From assembly GCA_007376385.1 (NCBI GenBank), contig VMGC01000004.1, positions 32,001-96,000 on the forward strand: a stretch of 64,000 nucleotides of DNA. Direction: 5' to 3'. A program made the translations under genes and the position numbers. The notes below the pieces were generated by a model that saw only the letters and a list, made by a program, of their open reading frames with translations, had not been told where the DNA came from and did not search any database. Numbering within the stretch: position 1 is the stretch's first letter; every line of letters begins with the position of its first letter. Shown here in pieces: positions 823 through 64,000 of this stretch. The stretch is from Parcubacteria group bacterium Gr01-1014_8. GTDB lineage: Bacteria; Patescibacteriota; Minisyncoccia; Phycocordibacterales; UBA2100.

Positions 823-1170
823 TTAACCAAATACTAACACCTTGTCCGAACTCTCGACCATATTGAGTAAGTCGGACATGGTGGAAATAGGACACATGGC
901 GGTCTCTTTTTTGCCGCGAATTTCCAAGCAAGTACCGCATGCAAAGATTGTTCCTTTCAGTTCTTTATATTCTGCAATTCTCTTTGAAATATCAAAATGT
1001 TCGCCATCAGGAATAGAATCCAATTCCGAACCCTCATTCATCAAGAAAATCTCAACGTGGTGATTAGCTTTGAGTGCGGCGATACCGAGGCGGAACGTGT
1101 TCCATACGTGTTCGGGTTTATTGGATTGTAGGATGATGCCGAGCTTCATAGAGAGTATCTTCGTATCCAT
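823..1170 (-). CDS. DsrE/DsrF-like family small protein
   Basis: 115 aa; length and pattern (lone Cys in GTIFACGTC, alpha/beta layout) resemble the DsrE/YchN fold. Weak assignment. Confidence 0.45.
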   Translation of the reverse strand: MDTKILSMKLGIILQSNKPEHVWNTFRLGIAALKANHHVEIFLMNEGSELDSIPDGEHFDISKRIAEYKELKGTIFACGTCLEIRGKKETAMCPISTMSDLLNMVESSDKVLVFG

Positions 1171-1186
1171 TGATATAATACTTCAT

Positions 1187-2740
1187 ATGCGCTATTTCCT
1201 CTACGCCCGCAAAAGTACGGATGTCGAAGACAAACAGGTGATGTCCATCGAAGGACAGCTCGTTGAACTGCGGGCATTGGCTAAACGTGATGGATTAGAA
1301 ATTGCAGAAGAATTCATTGAAAAGCGAAGCGCGAAGATTCCAGGCCGCCCTGTATTTGAGGACATGTTAAAGCGGATCGAGAAAGACGAAGCGCACGGAA
1401 TTATCTGCTGGAAAATTGATCGTCTTTCACGCAATCCGGTTGATAGCGGGAGAATTAGTTGGCTACTTCAACAGAACATAATCCAGAAGATCGTAACGCA
1501 TGACAAGATATATCTTCCTCACGACAACGTACTCCTCATGTCTGTGGAATTCGGCATGGCGAATCAGTACATCCGAGACTTGAGTGTCAACGTGAAGCGC
1601 GGCCTCCGGCAAAAGGCACGACAAGGCGTATATCCAAGTACCGCGCCCTTGGGCTACCGCAACGACCCGTACACCAAGACCATCGTCGTGGATCGGCGCA
1701 AAGCGCCGCTCGTGCGTAAGGCATTTGAACTCTACGCAAAGAACGGCTCGCGGCTCGAAGACATTGCGCAGTTTCTTTTCGAGCACGGCATCAAGACGGG
1801 AGCGACGCGCGGATGGAGCAAGGGCGGCGGCAGGCCGCTCAAAAAAGACCAGATAACATTCCTGCTCTCTAATCCGTTTTACTTCGGCCACTTCGCCTAC
1901 AGCGGCGAGATGTACGAGGGCACGCATACGCCCATCGTGAGCAAGGAGCTTTTTGACGCGGTGCAAAAAGTCCTCGCGCTTCGCAGTCGTGCGCACCACA
2001 AAGTGGCGAACGAGCCGCAAGCGTATTGCGGCCTTTTGCATTGTGGCGAGTGCGGCTTTTCCATCACCGCCGAGGAGAAATCGAAGCGACAGAAGAACGG
2101 CAACGTACATCGCTACATTTACTATCGCTGTACGAAAAAGAAAGCCGCCGTTCATTGCTCACAGCCGTATGTGCGGGAAGAAGCGCTCGACTCGCAACTC
2201 TCCGGCTTGCTCGCAAAGTTTGTCATGCCCGCGCATTGGGCGAAGGAATTAGACGCAATGGCCGAGCGAGATGCGGCAAGCGCCTCTCAAACCACGGCGG
2301 CGTCCGTCCAAGCGATGCGGGCAAAGATTGCCGAGTTAGACGGCAAAATCGCCCGCATCACCGACCTCTTTGTCGAACAGGATATCGAGCGCGGCGACTA
2401 TCTCGAAAGGAAGCGCGCACTTATGTCCGAAAAGAAGTCGGTGCAGGAGCGAATCCTCCTGCTTGAACGGGACGCCGCCGTGTGGCTCGAACCGATGCAG
2501 AAGTGGATACAAGAGGCGCAAATGCTTGAAGAAATTGCGAAATCCAAAGACTACCCCTCCAAAAAATCCTCCCTCCAAAAAATCTTCGGCTCGAACCTCA
2601 CTCTCCACGCGCGCGAAGCGCGCGGCGTGCCGCAAAATCAGTGGTTTTCTTTGCTCACTGCCAAAGAAAACCACTCCGAAAATAACCTCGTTCCGATACT
2701 TGTGACCTCACGGGGAATCGAACCCCGGTTCCATCCTTGA
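1187..2740 (+). CDS. Large serine recombinase (resolvase/invertase N-terminal domain plus recombinase and zinc-ribbon domains)
   Basis: N-terminal YARKSTDVEDKQ..SIEGQ catalytic-serine motif. Central recombinase domain followed by a Cys cluster (CGLLHCGECG...CTKK..HC) and a C-terminal coiled coil. The start is taken at the internal ATG 1187; the ORF track begins at a TTG at 1070 that overlaps the upstream gene. The 3' end overlaps the tRNA-Glu gene. Confidence 0.8.
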   Translation: MRYFLYARKSTDVEDKQVMSIEGQLVELRALAKRDGLEIAEEFIEKRSAKIPGRPVFEDMLKRIEKDEAHGIICWKIDRLSRNPVDSGRISWLLQQNIIQKIVTHDKIYLPHDNVLLMSVEFGMANQYIRDLSVNVKRGLRQKARQGVYPSTAPLGYRNDPYTKTIVVDRRKAPLVRKAFELYAKNGSRLEDIAQFLFEHGIKTGATRGWSKGGGRPLKKDQITFLLSNPFYFGHFAYSGEMYEGTHTPIVSKELFDAVQKVLALRSRAHHKVANEPQAYCGLLHCGECGFSITAEEKSKRQKNGNVHRYIYYRCTKKKAAVHCSQPYVREEALDSQLSGLLAKFVMPAHWAKELDAMAERDAASASQTTAASVQAMRAKIAELDGKIARITDLFVEQDIERGDYLERKRALMSEKKSVQERILLLERDAAVWLEPMQKWIQEAQMLEEIAKSKDYPSKKSSLQKIFGSNLTLHAREARGVPQNQWFSLLTAKENHSENNLVPILVTSRGIEPRFHP

Positions 2741-17362: not shown

Positions 17363-19276
17363 ATGCGGGCTATCCTAGGCCTTTGTTTTGTGTTGCTAGC
17401 GGCTTTACCGGTGTTCGCCATCACAGTGCCTGCAAATCCAACGACTGACGCAGAGCAGGCGGAAAGATCCTGCGCGGGCGAACAAACCGCAAAAACCGGT
17501 GAAGACGCAAAAGGAAAAATCGATTGTTCTCTAAAGTGCGGATCGAGAGTGATGAAGGTTGAGAAGGGAAAAGTTGTCATAACAAAAGACGAAAAAGGAA
17601 AGCAGTGCAGCGACCTTCAAAAAAATGTAATTTGCAAAACGTTGCCCAATAGTCCCGATTGCTGCACAGGCACCATCAGGTTTGTTTCGCCTGACATTCG
17701 AACGCCGGATAGGGTATTTTCTCGGTGCTCTCGCGATGATAAAGAGATCGAAAAGCAGGCTGAGCTGTTTGAAAATCTTGCAGGGAGGCAGCAGACTGCA
17801 ACAAATCTCAATGACCTTATTCAGTCAGTCGATCCGGATCTGCCATTGCCTGAAGGCATCCATCAAGAACTCAAGAACGGTCTTATGGAGCTCGGTTTTA
17901 CGCCCGGCCAGGCGGATGAGCTCATTCCTAAACTTGTCGGAAATCAGCAGAGTGCGGAAGATGCGCTCGATAAGATAGCGACGGGCAGAGCAGGATCTAT
18001 TACTGCAGACGAGCATGGTTTCAGCCTTTCTGACGCTGAGCGCTCGAATTTGCAGGCGCATATGGAAGCTTTGCAACCCGGTGAGCGTCCGCTCGACGAA
18101 GAACAGACTGACCCCGCCGTCGCGAGATGCAACGCTGGCGAAGAGTGTCCGGATAATACGTTCAAAGATGACGAAAAGGATGCATTGCTTCATCAGGCGG
18201 CGCTAAAAGATGATGTTGCAGACATGTGCGGGAAGCTCGACGGATGTTCCGTGGAATGCAGTGCAAGAAATCCGCTCGTATGCGTGACTCAGAATCCCGG
18301 TGCCGTCGTGTGCAGTCCTATTGCTAGAAGATTCGGTTGCAGTACGTGCGATCCCAACAATAACACTGCAATATGTCCGTCCATGGAAGCAGGAATTGCA
18401 TTGCAGGCTGTGCTCCTCCGTGAGAATGGTCGTTACTTCGGCTCCGGACAGAAATCAATACTTCAGGCATTTTGCAGCGGTTATTCGGCATCAAATTGCG
18501 GTCCGTATGCGCAATTCGTCGCCAGTCGAACGAGTATACCCATCAATCAAACTATTGACCCAAACAATACGGAACAGTTGGCGCGCATCATGATGGCGAG
18601 TTCTCGTTTTGAAAGCGGCCGGGGCGTGCTGTATTCGCCTGAACAGTTGCAACACGGTCTGGAGATCGCGTACGGTACGAGGGAACTCCCGCCCGCGACG
18701 CCAGGGTATGTCCCAAATTTCACTGCCGGCGGCTTGCCTAACGCTACGTCGCCATTCAACATTGGCTATGGAAATGATCCGTTCAGCACCGGCTTCGGGT
18801 CTCCCTTCGGCACGGGGACAAATGTGGGAACTCCGACAAATGTCGGGTACCCCACGAACACCGGGTATCCGGCCCAAAGTGGCTACGGCAGCGGGGGGAT
18901 CCCAGGGGGAACGGGGCCATCGCAAATCCCTGTTTCCCCGATCCCAATATCTCAGATCATTGATCCTCAAGGTCAGATGATGACCGTCGTGTCGATGCAG
19001 CCTGTGATAACGCTCATCGCAGAGCCAAATGAGATAGTACGAGGAAAAGGGGCTATCGTCTCATGGTCAGCGGTTGGTGTGAAGACGGAACCGAAATGTT
19101 CAATAACGAAAAGCGGTGTCGCAGGTTCGGGTACGTTTGCGGGGGGCAACGACGGCGCCAAACGTCTGAAAACGACGAAACAAATGTCGCCCGGCGTTGT
19201 TACACTTACAATGAAGTGTGTTTCAAGCGCAACAGGCCAAGTGCTCGAAAAAGGACAGCAAATCACCGTACGATGA
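17363..19276 (+). CDS. Large secreted cysteine-rich protein (637 aa), unknown function
   Basis: Signal peptide MRAILGLCFVLLAALPVFA. More than 30 Cys in the mature part, a G/T/P/Y-rich low-complexity segment, and a C-terminal beta-rich region. Confidence 0.6.
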   Translation: MRAILGLCFVLLAALPVFAITVPANPTTDAEQAERSCAGEQTAKTGEDAKGKIDCSLKCGSRVMKVEKGKVVITKDEKGKQCSDLQKNVICKTLPNSPDCCTGTIRFVSPDIRTPDRVFSRCSRDDKEIEKQAELFENLAGRQQTATNLNDLIQSVDPDLPLPEGIHQELKNGLMELGFTPGQADELIPKLVGNQQSAEDALDKIATGRAGSITADEHGFSLSDAERSNLQAHMEALQPGERPLDEEQTDPAVARCNAGEECPDNTFKDDEKDALLHQAALKDDVADMCGKLDGCSVECSARNPLVCVTQNPGAVVCSPIARRFGCSTCDPNNNTAICPSMEAGIALQAVLLRENGRYFGSGQKSILQAFCSGYSASNCGPYAQFVASRTSIPINQTIDPNNTEQLARIMMASSRFESGRGVLYSPEQLQHGLEIAYGTRELPPATPGYVPNFTAGGLPNATSPFNIGYGNDPFSTGFGSPFGTGTNVGTPTNVGYPTNTGYPAQSGYGSGGIPGGTGPSQIPVSPIPISQIIDPQGQMMTVVSMQPVITLIAEPNEIVRGKGAIVSWSAVGVKTEPKCSITKSGVAGSGTFAGGNDGAKRLKTTKQMSPGVVTLTMKCVSSATGQVLEKGQQITVR

Positions 19277-35759: not shown

Positions 35760-37595
35760 TCAGAAATTTCCCCACGCTGCCGGATGCCATGGTACTTTCG
35801 TAGAAATTTTTTCGGTCTTTTGCCGAAAGCCGTCATCCTTCATCAATTCTCGAATCGAAGGAAGAGTCTTGGGAGCGTTAGGCAATTTTTCTAGTACATA
35901 TACTTGCACAGGCGTACCAGAGGCAGTCATTTTTTTACGCAAAATAACATTCAGTATCTTTATGCGAGGAGCAATACCGCCTTCGTTGGGTTCTGAAAAT
36001 ATGGATTCGAGAAGCTCTAGTACGGAGGGGTAGACATAACGCGCCTCTATGAATATCTGCCCGTTTGTCGCAAGCCGTTCATAGAGTTCTCTCAAGACTC
36101 TGTCGTATAACGATTGAAATGCAGCTTTGTTTGCTATCTTCTCTTTCATTGCTCCGATCGGCCTGAAAAAAACGGTATCTAAAACAAATCCCCGAGATAT
36201 ATGGTCGTCGATTCTCGCAAGTAGGTTCTTGAGGCTTCCTCCTCTGCCCCGACGGAGAACATCCCCAGGGACAAATTCCAGTCCTGGACGGTGAGTCTGG
36301 GCGACGGCATTGGCATGAGGAGTATCACTTGGATCGATTGCTGTGGCCGCGATCATCGCGTCTTCACCTGCTTCAAATCCTAAATTTCCCTGGCCGAATA
36401 CATCTACGAAGAGGACTTTCTGTTTATTTCCATGTCGCTTTGCAATTCGTTCTTGGATACGTTGCGGAGACGAAAGCCCCCAGAAGGAGAGTTTATCAAC
36501 GCTCTCTTGCGAATTTATCTGTGTTGACCTTTTTACCTCATCTTCAATGTCGTCGGGGCTTCTCGCAAAATACGGAATATTACCCGCGTATGCATCCCAG
36601 TTTTTTTCTTTTAGCTTCTGTGCATCATGCATGTCGTATTTCAAGCTTTCTAACCCGCGGCGCATAACACCTTTTTTTAGGATTTTAAATTTGCGCACAG
36701 GTTTGGTGCGAAGTTTTGCCGTCTCTGAAATATAGTTCTCGTCCACTTGAGAATCTCCTGCTCGGTCGACATATATCTGCCGTTTGTAATAAGGTCTCAC
36801 AGTTTTTATGCTTATCAAATGACCGCCAACAATGGGCGCGTTTGACCCGAGTCTTTCGTCAAGACTAGTCTGGAGAGCGAAAATCTTTTCGGCTTGATTT
36901 TTGATGTTGCCGTTAGGTAACCGTGCGATATCGGCCGTTTTCATTCGAAGGATATAATCTTCATCTGTGAGAACCAAGCCTTCATTGCCTGATGGGAGAA
37001 GTGATTGGTCGGGAGCGAGTACATCGGTCCTACTCAAGTAATCAATGTCTAGTTTCCGAAGACGTTCAACCTCGGCAATTCCGGTGCCGGTTGTTCCATA
37101 ATACGTCGTAAAACCTTTGGTTTTTCCTACCGCGATCCGACTCATTATCGCCGCCAACGTTGTCGAAGCGCTGATTATTGAGTTAAACGAAGGCTCCGAA
37201 AATATCGTTGTATAGAGATCCTTCCCGATACCTTTCTGCTGGTGTTCTTTGCCCACGATAATGTCACGAAGAATCGCGACGGAGGCGTCGCTTGCGTCGC
37301 GCTCGATGCAACAAAATCCGAGTACGCGAGAATCGGAAGTTTTAATGAAAACCTTATCAACGCTCTCGAATGTTATCTGCAATTGTCGCTCAAATTCCGC
37401 TTCATCACGATCGTATGCCTCCTTAATGAGGGGCCAAAACAGATCCTTAAGTTGGACAATGTTCTCGTTCCACATCTCTTTGTCTTTAACGGTAAGGACG
37501 AGACTAGCACTTGAGATATCCATCGAGGCGCCTTTGAAATTCTCAAGCTTTAGTTTGAGCTCATTTGGACAATCACTCCCGATATCCCGTATCAT
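35760..37595 (-). CDS. Multidomain protein: N-terminal GNAT acetyltransferase domain fused to uncharacterised middle region and C-terminal Rossmann-like (GxGxxG) domain
   Basis: GNAT motif A (ILRDIIVGKEHQQKGIGKDLY). C-terminal KVLFVDVFGQGNLGFEAGED resembles a dinucleotide/SAM-binding motif. Confidence 0.6.
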   Translation of the reverse strand: MIRDIGSDCPNELKLKLENFKGASMDISSASLVLTVKDKEMWNENIVQLKDLFWPLIKEAYDRDEAEFERQLQITFESVDKVFIKTSDSRVLGFCCIERDASDASVAILRDIIVGKEHQQKGIGKDLYTTIFSEPSFNSIISASTTLAAIMSRIAVGKTKGFTTYYGTTGTGIAEVERLRKLDIDYLSRTDVLAPDQSLLPSGNEGLVLTDEDYILRMKTADIARLPNGNIKNQAEKIFALQTSLDERLGSNAPIVGGHLISIKTVRPYYKRQIYVDRAGDSQVDENYISETAKLRTKPVRKFKILKKGVMRRGLESLKYDMHDAQKLKEKNWDAYAGNIPYFARSPDDIEDEVKRSTQINSQESVDKLSFWGLSSPQRIQERIAKRHGNKQKVLFVDVFGQGNLGFEAGEDAMIAATAIDPSDTPHANAVAQTHRPGLEFVPGDVLRRGRGGSLKNLLARIDDHISRGFVLDTVFFRPIGAMKEKIANKAAFQSLYDRVLRELYERLATNGQIFIEARYVYPSVLELLESIFSEPNEGGIAPRIKILNVILRKKMTASGTPVQVYVLEKLPNAPKTLPSIRELMKDDGFRQKTEKISTKVPWHPAAWGNF

Positions 37596-41043: not shown

Positions 41044-41127
41044 ATGAAGAGATACGATCATCGCAAAATTGAGAAAAAATGGGCCTCCTTCGCTAAGGCT
41101 ACGGACGGGCAAACAGCAGAAGTATGA
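41044..41127 (+). other. Upstream ORF (27 aa) mimicking the LeuRS N-terminus, stop overlapping the leuS ATG (ATGA)
   Basis: Encodes MKRYDHRKIEKKW..., versus LeuRS MKSYDHKRIERKW... Its ATG sits in the loop of a 10-bp perfect hairpin (41029-41058). Confidence 0.3.
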
Positions 41128-44081
41128 AAAGTTACGATCATAAACGTATAGAACGAAAGTGGCAGGCACGCTGGAAGAAATCGAAGCTGTACAAGACTGC
41201 CGATACGGTAAAAGGTAAGAAAAATTATTATTTGCTAACTGAATTTCCGTATCCGTCTGGCAATTTGCACGTCGGACACTGGTACGCTTTTTCTGTACCG
41301 GACATTTTAGCAAGAGCGCTCCGCATGCAAGGCAAGAATGTGATGTATCCGTTCGGCTTTGATGCATTCGGATTGCCTGCGGAAAACGCAGCCATAAAAA
41401 ATAAGTTGAATCCTCGAAAATGGACCCTCGGCAACATCAAGTACATGAAAAAACAGATAACCTCGATGGGTGCATCGTTTGATTGGTCTCGAGAACTCGC
41501 TACGTGCGATCCTGAATACTACAAGTGGACGCAGTGGCAGTTTTTGCAATTTTTTAAGGCAGGACTCGCATATCGAAAAGAGACAGCAGTCAATTGGTGC
41601 CCTTCGTGCAAGACAGTGCTTGCGAACGAGCAGGTAGTGGATGGAAAATGCGAACGATGCGGAACGGAAGTGATTCAGAAGCAAATGCTTCAATGGAACT
41701 TAAAAATCACCGACTATGCGGACCGTCTTATTGACGATTTGAGCACGCTGGATTGGCCTGAACAGATAAAGGAATCGCAGAAAAATTGGATAGGACGTTC
41801 TGAAGGCGCCGAGATAGATTTCAGGCTCACAGGAAATGTAGGCGATGACTCACGGTATCTGATCCTCCACGGCAGAGAAGGGAAGCCCACGAGCGTCTTT
41901 ATTCCATGGCTCAAAGAAGAACTGGAAAAAGCTGGACATGAAGTGGAAGTGCCACAGCTTCCCAACACGAATGAACCGAATGCATATGAACAGGCAGAAT
42001 ACATCCTCAAGAACTGCACCGTAGATGAAAAAACAGTTGTGATAGGCCACTCGATAGGAGGAGTTACAGCGCTGCGTCTCTTGGAGAAGGGCGCAAAGGT
42101 TAGGCGCGTTATATTGGTCGCGACACCGTACTCAGGAAGATTTTTGGATGGTAAGAAACGGCCGAGCGTCACAGATTCCGTGAAGAAGGGGTTCGATTTC
42201 GAGACGATACGGAACAATACAAAGAGCATCATTGTTATGCCGGATGTAAAAGATGACAGAGTTCCATTTTCCGACGCCGAGAGCTATGCGCAGAAACTGG
42301 CCGGGATGCTGGTCCATGGCAGGGGAGAGGAGAAGCATTTTATGGGTAAGATAGAGCCGGATGTATTGATGTGCCTTTGCCCCACTATCCGCGTTTTTAC
42401 GACGCGAGCCGACACGCTTTTCGGGGCGACCTACATGGTCTTGTCCCCGGAACATCCATGGGTACGGTTAGCGATAGATGATGATCACAAAGTTTTAGAA
42501 AATAAGGATGAGGTAAAGGAATACGTCACAGCGGCGAATAAAAAAACTGAGCTGGAACGCCTCACGGAACAAAAAGAAAAGACCGGGGTGAGGCTGAAAG
42601 GCGTTGAGGGAGTAAACCCCGCTACGGGCGAGAAGATACCGATATTCGTAGCAGACTACGTGCTTGCGCACTACGGGACAGGGGCCATCATGGCGGTCCC
42701 GGCGCACGATGAGCGCGACTTTGCATTTGCCAAGAAATTTGAGCTGCCGATACGAGATGTGATCTCTACTGGAAAGATGGAATCCGGCGTGTTCGCAGGA
42801 GAAGGAGTGTTGGTGAATTCCGGCGCGTTCAATGGGCTAAAAAGTATCGAGGCTAAGAGCACGCTCACCGATAAATTTGGCCGCAGTAAAATCACGTACA
42901 AACTCCGCGATTGGATAGTTTCGCGCCAGCGTTACTGGGGAGTTCCAATACCCATCGTCCACTGCGAAAGGTGTGGAGACGTCGCTATTCCTGATCCACA
43001 GCTTCCCGTTACATTGCCGGAAATCAAAGATTATTTGCCAACCGGAGACGGAAAATCGCCTCTCGCAAAAGCCAAAAAGTGGGTCAAAGTGAAATGTCCG
43101 CAGTGCAAAGGGACGGCAGAAAGAGAAACAGATACTCTCGATACGTTCGTCGATTCATCCTGGTACTTTTTGCGGTACGCGGACACAATAAACAAAAAAA
43201 AGTTTGCCGATATGAAAAAGATGGATGCATGGATGCCGGTAGATCTCTATTCCGGAGGAGCAGAACACACAACGATGCACCTCCTCTATTCTCGCTTCTG
43301 GCAGAAGGCGCTCTACGATCTAAAGCTCGTTAAGGACAGCGAGCCGTACACGCGAAGGATGAATCGTTCCATCATTCTTGGTCCAGACGGGCAAAAGATG
43401 TCGAAATCCCGAGGCAACGTGATAGACCCGGATGCTGTTGTCGCGAAACTCGGCGCAGACACCGTGCGTATGTACCTTGCCTTCATAGGTCCGTATAATG
43501 AGGTTTCGAACTATCCGTGGAATCCGGATGGTGTGGTAGGTATTCGCCGTTTTCTCGAGCGTGTTTGGCGCCTCCGCGACCGACTTACGATATCGGTCAA
43601 GAAAAGTGACGGACATACGATATCGAACATCGAACGGATGCTGCATGTAACGATTAAAAAGGTGGGGGACGATATCACTGCCCTGAAATTCAATACTGCC
43701 ATCGCGCAGATGATGTCGTTTATGAACGAAGCAGAGAGTAAAGGGATCACAAAGGCGCAATACGAGACACTGCTTCGGCTTCTTGCCCCGTTCGCTCCTC
43801 ATATTGCAGACGAACTTTGGAGCATGATGGGACACAAGAAGTCGGTTCATATTGAAAAATGGCCCGCATTCGATCCGCATAAACTCGCGTCGTCGTCGTT
43901 TACAATTGCGGTACAAGTGAATGGCAAGACACGAACTCAAATCACCATACCTGCTGCAGTGAAGGAAGACGCCGTGAAGGAACAGGCTGAAACAGCTGCA
44001 GGAAAATGGTTGGAGGGAAAGGCTATAAAAAAGATCATCTACGTGCCCGGCCGCATCGTCAACATCGTCGCGGGCGAATAG
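41124..44081 (+). CDS. leuS: Leucyl-tRNA synthetase with inserted YdeN/RBBP9-like alpha/beta-hydrolase domain
   Basis: HIGH motif (HVGHWY) and KMSKS; CP1 editing motifs TTRADTLFGATY and GTGAIMAVPAHDERD. A roughly 185-aa insertion at aa 236-420 has YLILHG...GHSIGG... Confidence 0.9.
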   Translation: MKSYDHKRIERKWQARWKKSKLYKTADTVKGKKNYYLLTEFPYPSGNLHVGHWYAFSVPDILARALRMQGKNVMYPFGFDAFGLPAENAAIKNKLNPRKWTLGNIKYMKKQITSMGASFDWSRELATCDPEYYKWTQWQFLQFFKAGLAYRKETAVNWCPSCKTVLANEQVVDGKCERCGTEVIQKQMLQWNLKITDYADRLIDDLSTLDWPEQIKESQKNWIGRSEGAEIDFRLTGNVGDDSRYLILHGREGKPTSVFIPWLKEELEKAGHEVEVPQLPNTNEPNAYEQAEYILKNCTVDEKTVVIGHSIGGVTALRLLEKGAKVRRVILVATPYSGRFLDGKKRPSVTDSVKKGFDFETIRNNTKSIIVMPDVKDDRVPFSDAESYAQKLAGMLVHGRGEEKHFMGKIEPDVLMCLCPTIRVFTTRADTLFGATYMVLSPEHPWVRLAIDDDHKVLENKDEVKEYVTAANKKTELERLTEQKEKTGVRLKGVEGVNPATGEKIPIFVADYVLAHYGTGAIMAVPAHDERDFAFAKKFELPIRDVISTGKMESGVFAGEGVLVNSGAFNGLKSIEAKSTLTDKFGRSKITYKLRDWIVSRQRYWGVPIPIVHCERCGDVAIPDPQLPVTLPEIKDYLPTGDGKSPLAKAKKWVKVKCPQCKGTAERETDTLDTFVDSSWYFLRYADTINKKKFADMKKMDAWMPVDLYSGGAEHTTMHLLYSRFWQKALYDLKLVKDSEPYTRRMNRSIILGPDGQKMSKSRGNVIDPDAVVAKLGADTVRMYLAFIGPYNEVSNYPWNPDGVVGIRRFLERVWRLRDRLTISVKKSDGHTISNIERMLHVTIKKVGDDITALKFNTAIAQMMSFMNEAESKGITKAQYETLLRLLAPFAPHIADELWSMMGHKKSVHIEKWPAFDPHKLASSSFTIAVQVNGKTRTQITIPAAVKEDAVKEQAETAAGKWLEGKAIKKIIYVPGRIVNIVAGE

Positions 44082-44084
44082 TCC

Positions 44085-45509
44085 CTATTTTTGGGAGATA
44101 CGAGGACCTTTGGTCGAGTCTTCGAGGTTGAATCCATGCGCAGCGACCATGCTGCGTAATTCGTCGGCCCGTTTCCAATCTTTTGCACCTCGGGCCGTCT
44201 CGCGTTCATCGACAAGTGCGCGAACTTCCGGCGGCAGCTCATCAATAGATACGTTGTTCGCTGCGCTGCCGGATTCAAGTTTCAGTCCTAATACCGCATC
44301 AAAATCTTTGAGAGCGTTGTATTTTTTGACGGCACTGACGTTTGGGTCTTTTACAAGCTCCCACACAACTGCGAGCGCTCCAGGAGTGTCCACGTCATCA
44401 TTAATTCGCTTTCTGAACATATCTATATATGGATCAGCGTTCTTGCCAGTGTCTTTATTATCCCTGAACGAACCATACAAATTGTATAGGCGATTCAAAG
44501 ACGTCTGCGCTGCAGTCATTCCGTCCCACGAAAAACTTGCTGGCGTGCGGTAGTGAGCGCCGAGGAGAAGATATCGGAATACGAGGGGAGAGAACCCGCG
44601 TTCGACGACATTTGATACATAGATGGTATTGCCTTCCGACTTTGCAATTTTGGCGCCCTCTATCTGTACGTGGGCGCGATGAAGCCAGAAGCGTGAAAAT
44701 GGCTTTTTACCTGTCGCAGATTCAGATTGAGCTATTTCGTTATTGTGGTGAATTGGAATGTGCTCTATTCCACCAGTATGAATATCTATCTGGTCGCCTA
44801 AGAGCTCTCTACTCATCACTGAGCACTCGATATGCCAGCCGGGATAGCCCTTTCCCCATGGCGAATCCCAGCCCAACGTATCCTGACTGCTAAGTTTCCA
44901 AAGCAAAAAATCGGTGGGATTTTTTTTGTCCGAAGTCGATGAGACACGTGCGCCTTCGCGAATGCCAGATAGGTCGATGTTGCCCAATGTTCCGTACGCC
45001 GGGAATTTCGACGAATCAAAATACATGCCTTGTTTCCCGCGATACGCGAATCCTTTTTTTTCGAGGGTTTTTACCATCTCTATCTGCTGCGGAATATAGT
45101 CTGACGCGCGCGGGAATGAAGTGCTGGCAGTATTGATGTTCAGAAGTTTTAGGTCCTCCAGAAACAAGTCAGCATATTTCTTGCCAAGTGCGCGCATGTT
45201 CTCGAGCGTGAGTTCCATGCCCTCTCGTTTCAATCCTTTTGTCATGCGGTCTTCTCCCTCGTCCGCATCGCCCTGGTTATCTCCGGTCAAATGGCCGACA
45301 TCGGTAAAATTTATTGCTTGTTTGACCTTGTAGCCGTTGAATTCGAGAGTGCGCCGCAATAGATCTACGAATACGAACATAGACAAGTTTCCGATATGTT
45401 GAGGACCGTAGACGGTCGGACCGCAGTTGTACATTTTTACTTCTCCTCTCTGCAGCATCGTAAACTCTTGCTTTTTACCGGTCAGCGTGTTGTAAAAGAA
45501 AAGCGGCAT
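44085..45509 (-). CDS. cysS: Cysteinyl-tRNA synthetase
   Basis: HIGN motif (PQHIGNL) and KIAKSEGN (KMSKS variant); Zn-binding Cys/His present. Start taken at the conserved MPLFFYNTLT. Confidence 0.9.
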   Translation of the reverse strand: MPLFFYNTLTGKKQEFTMLQRGEVKMYNCGPTVYGPQHIGNLSMFVFVDLLRRTLEFNGYKVKQAINFTDVGHLTGDNQGDADEGEDRMTKGLKREGMELTLENMRALGKKYADLFLEDLKLLNINTASTSFPRASDYIPQQIEMVKTLEKKGFAYRGKQGMYFDSSKFPAYGTLGNIDLSGIREGARVSSTSDKKNPTDFLLWKLSSQDTLGWDSPWGKGYPGWHIECSVMSRELLGDQIDIHTGGIEHIPIHHNNEIAQSESATGKKPFSRFWLHRAHVQIEGAKIAKSEGNTIYVSNVVERGFSPLVFRYLLLGAHYRTPASFSWDGMTAAQTSLNRLYNLYGSFRDNKDTGKNADPYIDMFRKRINDDVDTPGALAVVWELVKDPNVSAVKKYNALKDFDAVLGLKLESGSAANNVSIDELPPEVRALVDERETARGAKDWKRADELRSMVAAHGFNLEDSTKGPRISQK

Positions 45510-45661
45510 ATTCGCCGATGCTGAACCGCTTCTGTTCATACGAAACGGAAATGCAGACAGGATGTCTGAGATCACCTGCCCGACGACATCAGCGAGAGAC
45601 CGCATGACCAAAAGTATGCCTGCATTTGCTTCAGACTACAAGCGGAGAATGGCTCGTTGTC

Positions 45662-57024: not shown

Positions 57025-58533
57025 TCATCCGAGTGATTTTCGATACTTTGCCGCTGCAAGAGCATCGTCAGCGAATTCACTATTACCTTTCCAGAGATGG
57101 TAGATGTTCGATGTGTGGTTTCGATGCAGGAAATGCCGCTGCTTCTCCGGGCCAAGATCTTTTTCCACATACTCTTCAATGAGGGAAATATCTTCCGCGA
57201 GTACATTAAATCGAGCATCTCCGCCCATAAGCAGTTCTAAGTTTTCCTTATTCAAAAACTTACCCGCGTGGACGAGGTCCTTTTTAAGATTTACATACAA
57301 CCGCTCTAATAAGTTCATGATGCCCATCTCACGAGCGATCTTTAGCGCTCTTCCCGTAGCTATCAGCTCTGGCGGAATACCAAGGGAATAGAATGCGCCG
57401 GTGAATTTAATGGCTCTCGGCAGTTGAATCCCGCCAACACCGCGTGAATATCCGAAGAGTCCGATGTGCTGCGCCCTCTCACGATGACTCGGCAGTGCAG
57501 ACGCTACATCGTTTATGACATCCGCAAGCGGCGTTATTGTGTCAGTAAAAAAACGAGCTGCCCGAGCATTGAACAGAGAGATTTTTTCGCTGTCCTTCTC
57601 GTTCACTTTTTCATACCTGTCGATATTCTTAGGGATTTCTTTGTTGAGTTTTCGTATGGCTTTTTTCACGTCATCCAGCGGGTAATCCGAGCGAAAGGCT
57701 GATTGGATCGTCAACGACTGGGCACCTGTATACTGCTCTATGGTTTCGTCAACATATTCCGGGTTTATCCCTCCTCTGAACGGTAAGCTGCCGCCGCCAA
57801 CCCACGGATACATGCGTATACCTCGTTTTTCTCCTAGCTCATGTGAATCTGCAATAAGTTTCTTGACTGCGAGCACGGTCGGCAAAAGCCCCGCGTTCAT
57901 TGCCGGATCGGAGCGCGCTATAAAGACGCGAAAGTACTCTGGGACAAGAGCATGAGTGTCTCGCAGATAATCGAGATAATCACTCATGATGCGGGGAGCC
58001 TCTTCCATGGTCTCAACGCTTTCAAATAGCGGTATAACGTCGAGAAATTTGAATTCGCTTGGCATATCAAAAATACTTTCTGCAGCTTCCGCTATTCTAT
58101 GGAATCGCTCCTGCATCTGTTTGAGTTGCTCTGCAGAAGTCGTCATGGGCAAGATGAGTTCAAATATCGGAGGAATATGGAAACCGTATTGCCTCGCGGC
58201 ATGTTCGGCCGCAAATACGTTGATAAGGCTCCGCGGAAGCCGGTGTGTTTTCTCGACCCAAACATTTGGAATGCGAAACGTGAGAAATATGTTCTTGCCA
58301 ATTTGATGTTTCTTGAAATAGTCAAAATAGTTTTGGTACAGCCGGTCAATAACCGCCTCATCAACCAACTTTCCTTCCCAATCCCACATGTACTCGTGCA
58401 CTCCGAGCTCGGAAAAACATCGGTAGCATTCATCAATTTCCTCACTTGACGCAACAAACCGCTTCCCCGTAAAGGGTGACGGGCATGCGTTATCAGGATG
58501 CTGGGTGGCCATCGTGACGGGGATAGTGCGCAT
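57025..58533 (-). CDS. Archaeal-type phosphoenolpyruvate carboxylase
   Basis: N-terminal IPVTMATQHPDN matches the atPEPC signature start (…MSTQHPDN). Length is about 500 aa. Confidence 0.75.
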   Translation of the reverse strand: MRTIPVTMATQHPDNACPSPFTGKRFVASSEEIDECYRCFSELGVHEYMWDWEGKLVDEAVIDRLYQNYFDYFKKHQIGKNIFLTFRIPNVWVEKTHRLPRSLINVFAAEHAARQYGFHIPPIFELILPMTTSAEQLKQMQERFHRIAEAAESIFDMPSEFKFLDVIPLFESVETMEEAPRIMSDYLDYLRDTHALVPEYFRVFIARSDPAMNAGLLPTVLAVKKLIADSHELGEKRGIRMYPWVGGGSLPFRGGINPEYVDETIEQYTGAQSLTIQSAFRSDYPLDDVKKAIRKLNKEIPKNIDRYEKVNEKDSEKISLFNARAARFFTDTITPLADVINDVASALPSHRERAQHIGLFGYSRGVGGIQLPRAIKFTGAFYSLGIPPELIATGRALKIAREMGIMNLLERLYVNLKKDLVHAGKFLNKENLELLMGGDARFNVLAEDISLIEEYVEKDLGPEKQRHFLHRNHTSNIYHLWKGNSEFADDALAAAKYRKSLG

Positions 58534-61992: not shown

Positions 61993-63387
61993 TTACACTT
62001 TCTTCTTTTTTATCTCAATGCCCAGTTCATTCAGCTGTTTGCCCTGAAGCGGCTTAGGTGCGTTCATAACTGCGGTTTGGCCGCCCCTCGTCATCGGGAA
62101 TGCCTGCACCTCGCGAAGATAGCTCTCCCCCGTCAGGTTCATCAGAACGCGTTCAATGCCGATTGCGATGCCTCCGTGCGGCGGGGCGCCATAGGTAAAG
62201 GCTTTCAACATGTGCCCGATGCTATCTTCGATGCGTTCATCGCTGTAGCCCATTGTCTTATACACAGCACGTAATATGCCTGGTCTATGGGCGCGAATAG
62301 AACCCCCAGCGGTCTCGAAGCCGTTACAAACAAGATCATATTGCGCTGTCAAAATGTGTTCGATATTGCGGCCGTGCAACAGGTCATCCGCATGCTCTGG
62401 AAGCGGCGCAGAAAATGGATTGTGAGTGAACGTCCAACCGCCCTCAGGCGTTTTCTCAAAGAACGGGAATTTGTGGACCCACGCATACGCAAGAACCCCG
62501 GTTTTCTTCTCATCGTCTGTTCGAAGGTCGAATTTATCAGCGCCGAATTTTTCCATTGCTTCAGCATAGGTAAATCGCGGAAATGGTTTTTCACGAACTT
62601 TAAACCCGAGCTTTTCCACCGTCTCAGTCATCATGTCCTCCACGATGGCCATCACATCTTCTTGTTCGACGAATGACATCTCTATATCGATCTGCGAGTG
62701 TTCAAAGCCCCGGTCAGCCCGCAGGTCTTCATCGCGGACGGCGCGCGCAATCTGAAAATATCGCTCCATGCCTGCAACCATCAGAAGCTGCTTGTACTGC
62801 TGTGGGGACTGCGGAAGAGCATAAAATGAGCCTGGATGGAGCCGCGATGGAACGACAAAATCCCTCGAACCTTCCGGTGTTGACTCTGTGAGGAGAGGTG
62901 TTTCAATTTCGGTGAATTTCTTTGCAAATAAATACTCTCTGCACGCTCTGACAAATTCGCTCCGCAATCGAATATTCTTTTGCATTCGTTCACTTCGAAG
63001 ATCTAAATAGCGGTACTGCAATCGAGTTTTCTCATCGACCATTGAGGTATCTTCAGTAATTTCAAATGGCGGCACATCGGATGCACCGAGAACATCGAGT
63101 GATCCAACTGATACTTCTATATCGCCGTTCTCTACCCCGACGGTTATATTTTTTCCAGGTCGTTTGTTAACAGTGCCCATGATGGAGATAGCCGACTCGC
63201 GTGTCGTCGTCTTAGCGACTTCAAGAGCAGGACTTTTGGTCAAGACAACGGTTTGGACCGATCCGGTCATGTCTCGCACGTCAAAAAAGACCATTTTACC
63301 TTGGTCTCTCCGTACTGATATCCAGCCGCGTATGCAAACGCTTTCCCCGACATGATCTTTAAGATCTTTAATGTAGGTACGTTCCAT
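61993..63387 (-). CDS. aspS: Aspartyl-tRNA synthetase (short form without GAD insertion)
   Basis: N-terminal OB fold. Class II motifs YRYLDLR, QSPQQYKQLLM and FRDEDLRADR..FEHSQIDIEMSF. Confidence 0.85.
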   Translation of the reverse strand: MERTYIKDLKDHVGESVCIRGWISVRRDQGKMVFFDVRDMTGSVQTVVLTKSPALEVAKTTTRESAISIMGTVNKRPGKNITVGVENGDIEVSVGSLDVLGASDVPPFEITEDTSMVDEKTRLQYRYLDLRSERMQKNIRLRSEFVRACREYLFAKKFTEIETPLLTESTPEGSRDFVVPSRLHPGSFYALPQSPQQYKQLLMVAGMERYFQIARAVRDEDLRADRGFEHSQIDIEMSFVEQEDVMAIVEDMMTETVEKLGFKVREKPFPRFTYAEAMEKFGADKFDLRTDDEKKTGVLAYAWVHKFPFFEKTPEGGWTFTHNPFSAPLPEHADDLLHGRNIEHILTAQYDLVCNGFETAGGSIRAHRPGILRAVYKTMGYSDERIEDSIGHMLKAFTYGAPPHGGIAIGIERVLMNLTGESYLREVQAFPMTRGGQTAVMNAPKPLQGKQLNELGIEIKKKKV

Positions 63388-63391
63388 AGTG

Positions 63392-64000
63392 CTAGATCGA
63401 AACTCCAATCTTTTCACGAACGTCATACATCTTCTTGGATGCATATTCTCGCGCGTTCGCGCTCCCCTTTTCAAGTATTGTTGCTACATCTGAATCGCTG
63501 ATCGATGCATATTTCTCTCTCATCGGTTTTACAACGGCATCAATGTCCTCGATAAGCGCCTCTTTCAGGACCTTGTATTTTCCTTTATGTGCGCTATAGA
63601 GCGACTCAAGTTCTGCCTCAGCGCGAAAATGCCGGTGTACTTGGTACACATTCTCAGGTCTTTCTCCGGATGAGTCAGTGACAATGGACATCACCGCTTT
63701 TACGAGAACATCCTTTGGCTCAAAGAGAGGTATCGTATTTCCATAGCTCTTGCTCATTTTCTTGCCATCCGTGCCTGGAACGATAGCGACAGAATCCAAT
63801 ATCTTTGCTTGCGGTTCTTTAAATGTTTGGCCGAACGCAATGTTGAATTTCGACGCCGCTTCACGCGCGTACTCGAGATGCTGCCGCTGGTCAGCGCCCA
63901 CTGGTACAACATCGGTATCGTACAGCAAAATATCTGCGGCCATAAGCATCGGATAGTTAAAAAGTCCCACGTTCGCTTCGAGTCCTTTCGCAAGTTTGTC
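63392..64000 (-). CDS. trpS: Tryptophanyl-tRNA synthetase (C-terminal part; N-terminus beyond window edge)
   Basis: KMSKS motif and PVGADQRQHLE. The ORF runs off the right end of the window. Confidence 0.85.
   Translation of the reverse strand, partial: DKLAKGLEANVGLFNYPMLMAADILLYDTDVVPVGADQRQHLEYAREAASKFNIAFGQTFKEPQAKILDSVAIVPGTDGKKMSKSYGNTIPLFEPKDVLVKAVMSIVTDSSGERPENVYQVHRHFRAEAELESLYSAHKGKYKVLKEALIEDIDAVVKPMREKYASISDSDVATILEKGSANAREYASKKMYDVREKIGVSI

What the first reader, a model, noticed from the sequence alone, without database searches (positions are those of the whole stretch)
41829..42383. YdeN/RBBP9-like serine-hydrolase domain inserted into leucyl-tRNA synthetase
Between the conserved GRSEGAEIDF segment and the start of the CP1 editing domain (FTTRADTLFGATY), LeuRS carries about 185 extra residues. 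Their pattern YLILHGREG...W...L...G..V..P.LPN...P....W...L......VVIGHSIGG......L matches the small alpha/beta-hydrolase family typified by B. subtilis YdeN and human RBBP9, including the GHSxG nucleophile elbow. An esterase or thioesterase-like module grafted next to the editing site of an aminoacyl-tRNA synthetase is, to my knowledge, undescribed. It could add a second proofreading or deacylation activity, or moonlight in an unrelated function.
Basis: partly seen in the sequence, partly recalled or inferred. Interest (0 to 1): 0.75.

Follow-up and report, generated by a model that had tools for sequence, protein, structure and literature searches.

The report
Serine hydrolase nested inside leucyl-tRNA synthetase
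An essential translation enzyme (leucyl-tRNA synthetase) of an ultrasmall "CPR" bacterium carries a complete, apparently active small serine hydrolase spliced into one of its surface loops; this turns out to be widespread in these bacteria, no paper describing it was found, and what the extra enzyme does is unknown.

Summary
Window 41124-44081 (+) encodes a 985-aa bacterial LeuRS identical to that of Parcubacteria group bacterium Gr01-1014_8. About 183 residues (aa 238-420, nt 41835-42383) sit where T. thermophilus LeuRS has 4, at the tip of the beta-hairpin leading into the CP1 editing domain. The insert is a YdeN/RBBP9-family (PF06821) alpha/beta serine hydrolase by profile, by PDB sequence search and by fold. 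Its triad is Ser310/Asp377/His405. It is not a chimera: all 119 closest listed LeuRS relatives carry it at the same site, its triad is near-invariant, and its composition matches the rest of the gene. LeuRS synthetic and editing motifs are intact, so it does not replace CP1 editing. The same module occupies at least 5 different LeuRS sites in different CPR lineages. It also occurs in ValRS, AlaRS, TsaD, Der, SecA and UvrB, always with an intact triad. Most Kaiserbacteria relatives add a NUDIX domain inside CP1. Free-standing relatives lie next to a NUDIX gene or inside a PheRS operon. Best reading: an active RBBP9-like aminoacyl hydrolase carried as a guest domain. Whether it acts on synthetase substrates is unresolved. 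No paper describing it was found. New variant of a known kind; interest 0.65.

The parts
41124..44081 (+). leuS: bacterial-type leucyl-tRNA synthetase, 985 aa, host of the nested domain
   Evidence: ORF. TIGR00396 at 986 bits. Pfam tRNA-synt_1, PF13603 and Anticodon_1. AF2 model pLDDT 88.3, pTM 0.81, superposing on E. coli LeuRS 5OMW/4AQ7 at TM 0.82. Identical to P0028, Parcubacteria group bacterium Gr01-1014_8.
41268..41279 (+). HIGH motif (HVGH, aa 49-52) of the synthetic site
   Evidence: Invariant in 120/120 relatives; coordinates verified.
41796..41834 (+). Outgoing beta-strand RSEGAEIDFRLTG (aa 225-237) that leads from the catalytic body towards CP1; N-terminal junction of the insert
   Evidence: AF2 strand E225-237; aligns to Tt LeuRS up to residue 238.
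41835..42383 (+). Nested YdeN/RBBP9-family (PF06821) alpha/beta serine hydrolase domain, aa 238-420
   Evidence: PF06821 at 37.9 bits. 1UXO and RBBP9 by sequence and by fold, TM 0.83-0.84, rmsd 2.2-2.5 A. pLDDT 91-98 within the full-length model.
41868..41873 (+). His249-Gly250, the 'HG' oxyanion-hole motif after hydrolase strand beta1
   Evidence: H249 in 120/120 and G250 in 113/120 relatives; invariant in free-standing relatives.
42045..42059 (+). Nucleophile elbow GHSIG (aa 308-312); Ser310 is the catalytic nucleophile
   Evidence: S310 in 119/120 and G312 in 120/120 relatives; aligns with the GHS elbow of RBBP9 (Ser75) and of YdeN.
42252..42254 (+). Asp377, the catalytic acid (aligns to RBBP9 Asp138)
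   Evidence: Invariant in free-standing relatives. D in 100 and E in 20 of the 120 LeuRS. Alignment to RBBP9 and YdeN. Asp374 (nt 42243-42245), 119/120, is an additional residue specific to this clade.
42336..42338 (+). His405, the catalytic base (the 'HF' motif)
   Evidence: 120/120 relatives; invariant in free-standing relatives and in all host classes.
42384..42893 (+). CP1 editing domain (aa 421-590) with intact T-rich motif TTRADT (42399-42416) and HDERD (42705-42719)
   Evidence: PF13603 at 189 bits. T427, R428, T431, H528, D529, R531 and D532 are invariant.
42762..42791 (+). CP1 surface loop (aa 547-556) that is short here but holds a NUDIX domain in about 70% of the closest relatives and a PF06821 module in others ('site C')
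43395..43409 (+). KMSKS motif (aa 758-762)
   Evidence: Invariant in 120/120 relatives.

Best explanation
Shown: nt 41835-42383 encode a complete, well-folded YdeN/RBBP9-family alpha/beta serine hydrolase. Its triad is Ser310/Asp377/His405 and its oxyanion motif is His249-Gly250. It is nested at the tip of the beta-hairpin that connects the LeuRS catalytic body to the CP1 editing domain. The host LeuRS keeps all synthetic and editing motifs. The arrangement is old and vertically inherited in Kaiserbacteria-like CPR bacteria.

Inferred: the module is catalytically active and works like RBBP9. Ser310 attacks the carbonyl of an aminoacyl group that has a free alpha-amine (ester or amide linkage, probably a hydrophobic residue). 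An aminoacyl-enzyme forms, and water activated by His405/Asp377 then releases the free amino acid.

Most likely, but not shown: it acts as a self-contained guest enzyme. On this reading it is a small housekeeping hydrolase, either an aminopeptidase or an aminoacyl-esterase, that CPR lineages have repeatedly embedded in permissive surface loops of large essential proteins. LeuRS is the favoured host. The module would use free substrates rather than LeuRS-bound tRNA, and it does not replace CP1 editing.
For: Identity and fold.

Active-site conservation: S310 in 119/120, H405 in 120/120, D377 as D or E in 120/120 and H249 in 120/120 relatives, although the insert averages only 43% pairwise identity against 79% for the Rossmann core.

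Genuine and inherited: all 120 best LeuRS hits, from NCBI, JGI, ENA and Logan assemblies, have about 200 residues between GRSxG and TTRxDT. GC, GC3 and codon usage equal the rest of the gene, and there are no flanking repeats.

Autonomy: the module with an intact triad is also nested in UvrB, SecA, TsaD, Der, AlaRS and ValRS. It sits at 5 or more different LeuRS loops. Other small enzymes (NUDIX, GNAT, Ham1) occupy the same LeuRS loops. Free-standing and nested forms interleave in the module tree, and the closest relative of this insert (P0001, 56% identity) is a free-standing gene. CP1 editing motifs are retained in essentially all hydrolase-bearing LeuRS. Nested modules show no gain of a basic, RNA-binding-type surface.

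[quoted passage not shown] Peptidase genes neighbour two of the seven free-standing homologues examined.
Against: There is a strong host bias towards synthetases. Among 45 nested cluster representatives whose hydrolase-only score puts them in a host-independent complete list, 38 are in LeuRS and 40 in aaRS. However, this sample is centred on a LeuRS-derived query. Five independent LeuRS sites, plus ValRS, AlaRS and a free-standing copy inside a pheS-pheT operon, look more like functional coupling than random parking. NUDIX and PF06821 are adjacent free-standing genes in L003, and both are nested in the same Kaiserbacteria LeuRS, which suggests a functional trio. No enzymatic activity has been measured.
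Confidence: 0.45

Rival explanations
1. Synthetase-coupled quality control. On this reading the module is an additional hydrolytic site that clears aminoacyl esters or anhydrides made by the synthetase. Candidates are mischarged or surplus aminoacyl-tRNA, released aminoacyl-adenylate, or aminoacyl adducts derived from them. It could act in cis on LeuRS products or in trans while tethered near them. In many relatives a NUDIX domain would partner it by removing nucleotide by-products such as Ap4A.
For: The same hydrolase was recruited independently to at least 5 LeuRS sites, to ValRS and to AlaRS; by established knowledge all three are editing synthetases. A free-standing copy is translationally coupled inside a pheS-pheT operon. 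LeuRS dominates the nested hosts. NUDIX and PF06821 are adjacent as free genes and co-nested around CP1 in about 70% of the Kaiserbacteria relatives, mostly with an intact Nudix box. RBBP9 forms acyl-enzymes with exactly the hydrophobic amino acids that matter for LeuRS fidelity (Leu/Ile, Met) and requires a free alpha-amine. It is also reported to activate valacyclovir, an amino-acid ester of a nucleoside analogue (Shenoy 2020, seen only as a citation in PMC7730578). The junctions are short, with high pLDDT and conserved residues (E411 in 118/120, P420 in 114/120), suggesting a fixed pose on LeuRS.
Against: The module keeps its triad in UvrB, SecA, Der and TsaD, which make no aminoacyl esters. 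Canonical CP1 editing is intact everywhere, so no gap needs filling. The module is neutral to acidic with no conserved basic patch. Free-standing gene contexts are heterogeneous. No known aa-tRNA deacylase has this fold; none was found in the literature search, and the rest of that statement rests on my own knowledge.
Confidence: 0.3
2. Amino-acid supply. On this reading the module is an RBBP9-like aminopeptidase that removes N-terminal hydrophobic residues from scavenged peptides. Being tethered to the synthetases that consume such residues (Leu, Val, Ala) would give these amino-acid-auxotrophic CPR cells a local supply.
For: The only demonstrated activity in the family is aminopeptidase. Peptidase_S51, M16 and S41 genes flank free-standing homologues. 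The aaRS hosts are for aliphatic amino acids. That CPR bacteria lack amino-acid biosynthesis is general knowledge (abstracts listed).
Against: Channelling of a freely diffusing amino acid gives little kinetic benefit. Hosts such as UvrB, SecA and Der do not fit. The RBBP9 pocket and amine-anchor residues (Tyr99, Glu108) are not conserved at the aligned positions. This reading overlaps with the best explanation and differs only in claiming a benefit from the tether.
Confidence: 0.12
3. Non-catalytic role. On this reading the domain serves as a structural spacer, a regulator of CP1 movement or a protein-interaction module, and the hydrolase chemistry is vestigial.
For: It sits on the CP1 hinge, which by established knowledge rotates between the aminoacylation and editing states (both states appear among the E. 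coli LeuRS entries). The insert evolves faster than its host.
Against: Near-perfect conservation of Ser, Asp/Glu, His and the HG motif across hundreds of nested and free copies, while the rest of the domain diverges to about 43% identity, is the signature of a maintained active site.
Confidence: 0.05
4. Artefact: an assembly chimera, an intein-like mobile element or a pseudogene.
For: None found. The source is a metagenome-assembled genome.
Against: The ORF is intact and in frame. The same architecture appears in more than 100 independent assemblies. Composition and codon usage equal the rest of the gene. There are no flanking repeats. There is no intein signature: the insert ends '...CLCP|TIRV', with no His-Asn before the downstream junction, and its fold is a complete alpha/beta hydrolase.
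Confidence: 0.01

Closest known systems
Human RBBP9 (PDB 2QS9, 7OEX, 9FCR), PF06821
   Same: Same compact alpha/beta hydrolase fold of about 180 aa (TM 0.84, rmsd 2.2 A). Same GHS nucleophile elbow, the same Asp after strand beta7 and the same His. It is the only family member with defined chemistry: an aminoacyl-enzyme with hydrophobic amino acids bearing a free alpha-amine.
   Different: Only 22-23% identity. RBBP9 is a free-standing eukaryotic protein. Its substrate-cage and amine-anchor residues (Tyr99, Leu103, Glu108) are not conserved at the aligned positions. The site-A clade instead conserves Phe340, Asp342, Arg346, Gln290 and Asp374.
Bacillus subtilis YdeN (PDB 1UXO), PF06821
   Same: Best sequence match in the PDB (E 1.5e-10) and the top fold match (TM 0.83). 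It is bacterial and of the same size.
   Different: Free-standing, and to my knowledge of unknown function. No link to a synthetase is known.
Canonical bacterial LeuRS (T. thermophilus 1H3N/2BTE; E. coli 4AQ7/4ARC)
   Same: The host protein is a regular member: HIGH, KMSKS, ZN1, CP1 after ZN1, anticodon-binding and C-terminal domains.
   Different: Solved LeuRS chains are 880 aa or shorter and have a 4-residue turn (in T. thermophilus) where this protein has a 183-aa enzyme.
Editing modules shared between synthetases and free-standing factors: ProRS INS domain/YbaK/ProXp, AlaRS editing domain/AlaX, DTD (from established knowledge; papers listed)
   Same: These are hydrolytic domains that exist both free-standing and fused or inserted in synthetases, which is the same evolutionary pattern seen here.
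   Different: Different folds, and demonstrated aa-tRNA deacylase activity. Here the fold is alpha/beta hydrolase, the activity is untested, and the module also occurs in non-synthetase hosts.
IleRS with a GNAT domain (NCBIfam NF040702, 'isoleucine--tRNA ligase, N-acetyltransferase domain-containing')
   Same: A class Ia synthetase that carries an unrelated small enzyme domain, and is recognised as a curated family (listed).
   Different: Different guest and different host. I did not examine its insertion site.

Membership tests
PF06821 Ser_hydrolase (YdeN/RBBP9 family) | Profile HMM score above Pfam's gathering threshold | tested here: met
   37.9 bits on the insert and 33.3 bits in the whole protein, against a cutoff of 22.
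PF06821 Ser_hydrolase (YdeN/RBBP9 family) | Compact alpha/beta-hydrolase fold of about 180-190 aa, closest to the solved YdeN and RBBP9 structures | tested here: met
   AF2 model of the insert has pLDDT 88 and pTM 0.87. The top 7 Foldseek PDB hits are only 1UXO, 7OEX, 9FCR and 2QS9, at TM 0.83-0.84 and E about 1e-13; the next hit is at E 2e-6.
PF06821 Ser_hydrolase (YdeN/RBBP9 family) | Ser-Asp-His triad with a GxSxG elbow and an upstream HG oxyanion motif | tested here: met
   GHSIG (Ser310), Asp377, His405 and His249-Gly250 align to the RBBP9 and YdeN catalytic positions and are conserved in relatives.
PF06821 Ser_hydrolase (YdeN/RBBP9 family) | RBBP9-type recognition of a free alpha-amine (Glu108) and an aromatic cage (Tyr99, Leu103, Phe140, Leu141) | tested here: inconclusive
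   The aligned positions are variable (Tyr336, Phe340, Lys345). Nearby Asp342 and Arg346 are conserved in this clade, but the alignment in the lid region is uncertain.
PF06821 Ser_hydrolase (YdeN/RBBP9 family) | Hydrolase activity | not testable with these tools
   Needs biochemistry.
Bacterial leucyl-tRNA synthetase (TIGR00396 leuS_bact) | Equivalog HMM above the curated cutoff | tested here: met
   986 bits against a cutoff of 548.4, matched in two stretches split by the insert.
Bacterial leucyl-tRNA synthetase (TIGR00396 leuS_bact) | Class I signature motifs HIGH and KMSKS | tested here: met
   HVGH at aa 49-52 and KMSKS at aa 758-762, invariant in relatives.
Bacterial leucyl-tRNA synthetase (TIGR00396 leuS_bact) | CP1 editing domain with the Thr-rich motif and the conserved Asp of the editing pocket | tested here: met
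   PF13603 at 189 bits. TTRADT at aa 426-431 and HDERD at aa 528-532, with invariant T427, R428, T431 and D529.
Known aminoacyl-tRNA editing or deacylase families (CP1, INS/YbaK, AlaX, DTD) | Homology of the insert to one of these folds | tested here: not met
   The insert's only significant Pfam, NCBIfam and PDB matches are alpha/beta hydrolases.
Inteins | Hint fold with a nucleophile at the N-terminal junction and His-Asn plus Cys/Ser/Thr at the C-terminal junction | tested here: not met
   The junctions read '...RLTG|NVGDD' and '...CLCP|TIRV'. The whole insert is accounted for by an alpha/beta hydrolase fold.

The most novel reading that the evidence does not exclude
The nested module would be the first alpha/beta-hydrolase-fold aminoacyl-ester deacylase, acting on aminoacyl-tRNA or aminoacyl-adenylate. 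That would make it a new class of translational quality-control factor. CPR bacteria would have recruited it independently at least seven times: to five LeuRS sites, ValRS and AlaRS, plus a PheRS operon, often together with a NUDIX partner. By extension, the physiological acyl donors of the whole YdeN/RBBP9 family, including human RBBP9, which traps single Leu/Ile/Met/Phe/Tyr/Trp residues in cells, might be aminoacyl-tRNAs or related aminoacyl esters rather than peptides.
Probability: 0.25. Interest if true: 0.9.

Novelty: new variant of a known kind. Interest (0 to 1): 0.65.

Why it matters
Synthetase architecture is among the best-charted territory in molecular biology. A second, unrelated hydrolytic enzyme embedded at the hinge of the LeuRS editing domain is not part of that picture, even though it is conserved across a large bacterial radiation.

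The finding gives a concrete handle on two open questions. First, what do YdeN/RBBP9 hydrolases do in bacteria? The family has only one characterised member. Second, why do CPR bacteria embed small housecleaning enzymes (PF06821, NUDIX, Ham1, GNAT) inside essential proteins?

If the module proves to act on aminoacyl esters, it would add a new fold to the editing repertoire and would recast RBBP9 biology. If it is an autonomous guest, it is a clean natural example of repeated domain nesting under genome reduction, and it maps the permissive loops of LeuRS for protein engineering.

Tried and rejected
1. **Insert-only search of the 5.8-billion-protein word index.** It returned only free-standing hydrolases and missed even the query's own protein. 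This briefly suggested the fusion was unique. The full-length search and the exhaustive representative search showed that to be an artefact of the index.
2. **P0001 (56% identity).** I first suspected a LeuRS fragment. Six-frame translation of L001 showed a free-standing gene with its own start codon and a 3' frameshift.
3. **GTDB genome scan.** The scan with the hydrolase alignment failed because no conserved stretch was found. With the single insert as query it found only one Kaiserbacteria locus, so a species-level census was not obtained.
4. **AFDB50 fold search.** Unavailable.
6. **Compensation for lost CP1 editing.** Rejected: editing motifs are retained in hydrolase-bearing LeuRS, and the three regex misses are minor variants that keep the key Asp.
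7. **Gain of a basic tRNA-binding surface on nested modules.** Not seen.
8. **Mobile-element, intein or chimera explanations.** Rejected.
9. **Literature search on 'PF06821/YdeN/DUF1234'.** It returned only noise from author names.
Full report
**1. Observation**

Window 41124..44081 (+) is one intact 985-aa ORF. It scores 986 bits on the NCBIfam equivalog for bacterial leucine--tRNA ligase, against a cutoff of 548. The match is split into two stretches that break at about profile position 238/239. Pfam places tRNA-synt_1 at aa 12-223, the LeuRS editing domain PF13603 at aa 421-584, and the anticodon-binding domain at aa 836-949. Between them it places PF06821 'Ser_hydrolase' at aa 245-398. That match scores 33.3 bits in context and 37.9 bits (E 2.2e-9) on the excised insert, against a gathering cutoff of 22.

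Aligned to T. thermophilus LeuRS, '...GRSEGAEIDFRLTG' ends at Tt residue 238 and 'IRVFTTRADTLFGATY' resumes at Tt 243. Four residues there correspond to about 184 here.

**2. What the insert is**

A sequence search of the PDB finds B. subtilis YdeN (1UXO, E 1.5e-10) and human RBBP9 (2QS9/7OEX/9FCR, E about 5e-8) as the only strong matches. An AlphaFold2 model of the insert alone has pLDDT 88 and pTM 0.87. In a Foldseek search of the PDB its top seven hits are exclusively YdeN and RBBP9, at TM 0.83-0.84, rmsd 2.2-2.5 A and E about 1e-13. Generic alpha/beta hydrolases follow only at E about 2e-6.

Alignment to RBBP9, YdeN and 26 free-standing relatives identifies the catalytic residues:
- nucleophile Ser310, in GHSIG
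- catalytic acid Asp377 (RBBP9 Asp138)
- catalytic base His405
- oxyanion-hole motif His249-Gly250

Family membership is met by profile, by fold and by catalytic residues. RBBP9's specific substrate-contact residues are not conserved at the aligned positions, so substrate specificity cannot be transferred with confidence.

**3. Not an artefact, and not unique**

The protein is identical to P0028, the LeuRS of 'Parcubacteria group bacterium Gr01-1014_8' (the taxon exists). All 120 best LeuRS hits (P0028 plus 119 relatives at 56-73% identity) have about 200 residues between GRSxG and TTRxDT. They are Ca. Kaiserbacteria and related Patescibacteria MAGs from NCBI, JGI, ENA and Logan assemblies.

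Across them the catalytic positions are nearly invariant: Ser310 in 119/120, His405 in 120/120, His249 in 120/120, Gly312 in 120/120, and Asp377 as Asp (100) or Glu (20). The insert as a whole averages only 43% pairwise identity. That compares with 79% for the Rossmann fold and 62% for CP1. This is the pattern of a maintained active site on an otherwise fast-evolving domain.

GC (0.495 vs 0.488), GC3 (0.546 vs 0.546) and codon usage match the rest of the gene. There are no meaningful flanking repeats. A chimera, a recent transfer, an intein and a pseudogene are all excluded.

**4. State of the host**

HIGH (HVGH), KMSKS, the CP1 Thr-rich motif (TTRADT) and the editing-pocket Asp (HDERD) are present and invariant in relatives. 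The full-length AF2 model has pLDDT 88.3 and pTM 0.81, with pLDDT 91-98 across the insert. It superposes best on E. coli LeuRS in the aminoacylation conformation (5OMW/4AQ7, TM 0.82). No solved LeuRS chain in the listing exceeds 880 aa, so none can hold such a domain.

In the model, strand 225-237 runs out from the catalytic body. A 6-residue linker enters hydrolase strand beta1 (244-248). The C-terminal hydrolase helix (412-418) then runs straight into strand 421-426 of CP1. The module therefore replaces the tip of a hairpin, through short and confidently modelled junctions.

Across 166 near-full-length hydrolase-bearing LeuRS (all five sites), the editing motifs are retained in all but three by a strict pattern. 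Those three are minor variants that keep the key Asp. The hydrolase does not compensate for a lost CP1 function.

**5.

An exhaustive HMMER search of 1.84 billion cluster representatives used a junction-spanning query (aa 201-460). It gave 4550 hits at E<=1e-3 and 49 at E<=1e-30. Mapping the top 150 onto the window LeuRS and running Pfam on representatives shows the PF06821 module at five or more distinct LeuRS positions:

| Site | Position (window LeuRS numbering) | Examples | Lineage named by a source |
|---|---|---|---|
| A (this window) | q237/421 | P0158, P0164 | Kaiserbacteria, Minisyncoccia, Saccharimonadales |
| B | after about q617 | P0187, P0196 | Taylorbacteria (UniProt A0A1G2MFH8) |
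| C | CP1 loop, q547/556 | P0205, P0211 | a MAG labelled Nanohaloarchaeota |
| D | between catalytic and anticodon-binding domains | P0193 | Peregrinibacteria |
| E | after about q206, upstream of the whole CP1 profile | P0201, P0236 | Gracilibacteria |

The module is also nested in a ValRS (P0224), an AlaRS (P0241), TsaD (P0256), the Der/EngA GTPase (P0267), SecA (P0207) and UvrB (P0249). Ser, Asp, His and the HG motif are intact in every case.

The same LeuRS loops host other small enzymes:
- NUDIX occupies the CP1 loop q547/556 in about 70% of the Kaiserbacteria relatives, mostly with an intact Nudix box.
- GNAT together with PF06821 occupies site A in P0185.
- A Ham1/ITPase domain occupies site A in P0231.

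In a neighbour-joining tree of 148 modules, free-standing and nested forms interleave and site-B modules fall into several clades. The tree has long branches and no support values, so it is indicative only. The closest relative of the window's insert (P0001, 56% identity) is a free-standing gene.

For a host census, I kept only representatives whose hydrolase-only score exceeds the cutoff of the hit list. That subset is complete whatever the host. It holds 82 clusters: 35 short proteins (free-standing genes, some probably gene fragments), 45 nested and 2 unassigned fragments. Of the 45 nested, 30 are LeuRS site A and 8 are LeuRS site B. There is one each of ValRS, AlaRS, TsaD, Der, SecA, UvrB and an unknown host. 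This sample is centred on a LeuRS-derived query, so LeuRS is over-represented to an unknown degree.

**6. Contexts of free-standing relatives**

- In L003 the gene lies 3 bp downstream of a free-standing NUDIX gene and is followed by Peptidase_S51.
- In L007 it lies inside a pheS - PNPOx-like - hydrolase - small ORF - pheT operon, with 4-bp overlaps between genes.
- In L010 it follows a RimK-like ATP-grasp gene and faces a CCA-adding enzyme gene.
- In L004 and L005 it has M16 and S41 peptidase genes as neighbours.
- L006, L008 and L009 show unrelated neighbours.

There is no single conserved neighbourhood. Links to synthetases and tRNA recur, and the NUDIX pairing seen inside LeuRS also exists between separate genes.

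**7. Mechanism**

*Shown:* a folded PF06821 domain with a conserved triad, nested in a LeuRS hairpin, inherited across a clade, in a host with intact synthetic and editing sites.

*Inferred from the family:* RBBP9 is the only characterised member. Replacing its catalytic Ser with diaminopropionate (Dap) traps single Leu/Ile, Met, Phe, Tyr and Trp residues in cells. It requires a free alpha-amine. [quoted passage not shown] It is also cited as a valacyclovir-activating esterase (reference 5 of PMC7730578; I did not read the primary paper). The nested module most likely performs the same two-step chemistry: formation of an aminoacyl-Ser310 intermediate, then hydrolysis assisted by His405 and Asp377.

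*Unresolved:* the identity of the substrate.

I rate as most likely (0.45) that the module is a self-contained guest enzyme that does not use LeuRS-bound tRNA. The reasons are these:
- It keeps its active site in hosts that have nothing to do with aminoacyl esters.
- Other unrelated small enzymes share the same loops.
- CP1 editing is intact.
- The module has gained no RNA-binding-like surface. Its net charge is about -1 at site A, against -3.9 for free-standing forms.
- The positions conserved specifically in the site-A clade are acidic or polar: 287, 289, Gln290, Asp374 and Glu411.

The main rival (0.30) is coupling to synthetase chemistry, meaning clearance of aminoacyl-tRNA, aminoacyl-AMP or derived esters. 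Its support:
- the module was recruited repeatedly and independently into LeuRS, ValRS and AlaRS
- a free-standing copy sits in a PheRS operon
- the NUDIX partnership recurs both inside LeuRS and between separate genes
- RBBP9's trapped amino acids include exactly the LeuRS near-cognates

An amino-acid-supply variant (0.12), a non-catalytic role (0.05) and an artefact (0.01) follow.

**8. Comparison with the known, and novelty**

The host is a regular bacterial LeuRS and the guest is a regular PF06821 hydrolase. What is new is the combination, together with its recurrence. Searches of 8 million full texts found no description of a hydrolase or NUDIX domain nested in LeuRS or other synthetases of CPR bacteria. 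A 2026 survey of domain insertions treats the LeuRS editing domain only as an insert, not as the neighbour of further guests (PMC13114784). Annotation pipelines have labelled some copies, for example 'leucyl-tRNA synthetase/predicted alpha/beta hydrolase family esterase', 'alpha/beta fold hydrolase' and 'NUDIX domain-containing protein'. The architecture therefore sits in databases without having been interpreted.

I classify it as a new variant of a known kind. It would become categorically new only if the module proves to be an aminoacyl-tRNA or aminoacyl-adenylate deacylase. I rate that at 0.25.

**9. Limits**

- No coordinates of the models were accessible, so the position of Ser310 relative to the tRNA path is unknown.
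- The host census is biased towards relatives of a LeuRS-derived query.
- The module tree is a distance tree without support values.
- Most representatives carry no taxon names.
- The Nanohaloarchaeota label on P0211 may be a binning error.
- Nothing here measures enzyme activity.

Noticed in passing
Relatives P0029, P0032, P0035 and others (about 85 of the 120 best LeuRS hits); corresponds to window aa 547-556, nt 42762-42791: Most Kaiserbacteria LeuRS relatives (about 1122-1159 aa) carry a NUDIX domain (PF00293) in a CP1 surface loop, in addition to the hydrolase. Most have an intact Nudix box, GX5EX7REUXEEXGU. The window's LeuRS lacks it.
   Followed up: partly
P0185 (1318 aa) and P0231 (1027 aa); Pfam: Other guest enzymes occupy LeuRS site A. 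P0185 has a GNAT acetyltransferase plus PF06821. P0231 has a Ham1/ITPase-like domain (PF01725) instead of the hydrolase. P0235, P0248 and P0250 have an unidentified segment of about 190 aa there, plus a hydrolase at site B.
   Followed up: partly
P0249 (UvrB), P0207 (SecA), P0256 (TsaD), P0267 (Der/EngA), P0241 (AlaRS), P0224 (ValRS); The same PF06821 module, with its triad intact, is nested inside six other essential proteins. Only one cluster representative of each was seen, and their lineages are unnamed.
   Followed up: partly
L007:413-5211: A free-standing PF06821 gene is embedded in a PheRS operon (pheS, PNPOx-like gene, hydrolase, 108-aa ORF, pheT), with 4-bp overlaps between all neighbouring genes.
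   Followed up: no
L003:4426-6182: A free-standing NUDIX gene and a PF06821 gene are separated by 3 bp and followed by Peptidase_S51, between recA and recX. NUDIX and PF06821 are the same pair that is nested in Kaiserbacteria LeuRS.
   Followed up: no
P0212 (1169 aa): A LeuRS lacking the N-terminal catalytic part carries two tandem PF06821 modules upstream of CP1, plus a NUDIX domain.
   Followed up: no
L001:372-849: The closest free-standing relative of the insert (P0001, 56% identity) has a frameshift near its 3' end. The region of the catalytic acid (Asp) continues in another reading frame. This is either a sequencing error or a decaying gene on an 849-bp contig.
   Followed up: partly
window 17363-19276 (+) and 35760-37595 (-): Two large ORFs (637 and 611 aa) have no Pfam match at E<=1e-5.
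   Followed up: no
window 1070-2740 (+): A large serine recombinase (Resolvase, Recombinase and Zn_ribbon_recom domains) lies near the start of the window. It may mark an integrated element.
   Followed up: no
window 57025-58533 (-), 44085-45611 (-), 61993-63474 (-): An archaeal-type PEP carboxylase (PF14010 PEPcase_2) is present in this CPR genome. The other two synthetase genes in the window show only their regular Pfam domains: a CysRS immediately downstream of leuS on the opposite strand, and a class II Asp/Lys/Asn-type synthetase.
   Followed up: partly
window aa 614-661, nt 42963-43106: Four invariant cysteines (C614, C617, C658, C661) suggest a second zinc knuckle in this LeuRS. Site-B hydrolase insertions in other lineages land immediately after the first Cys pair.
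   Followed up: no
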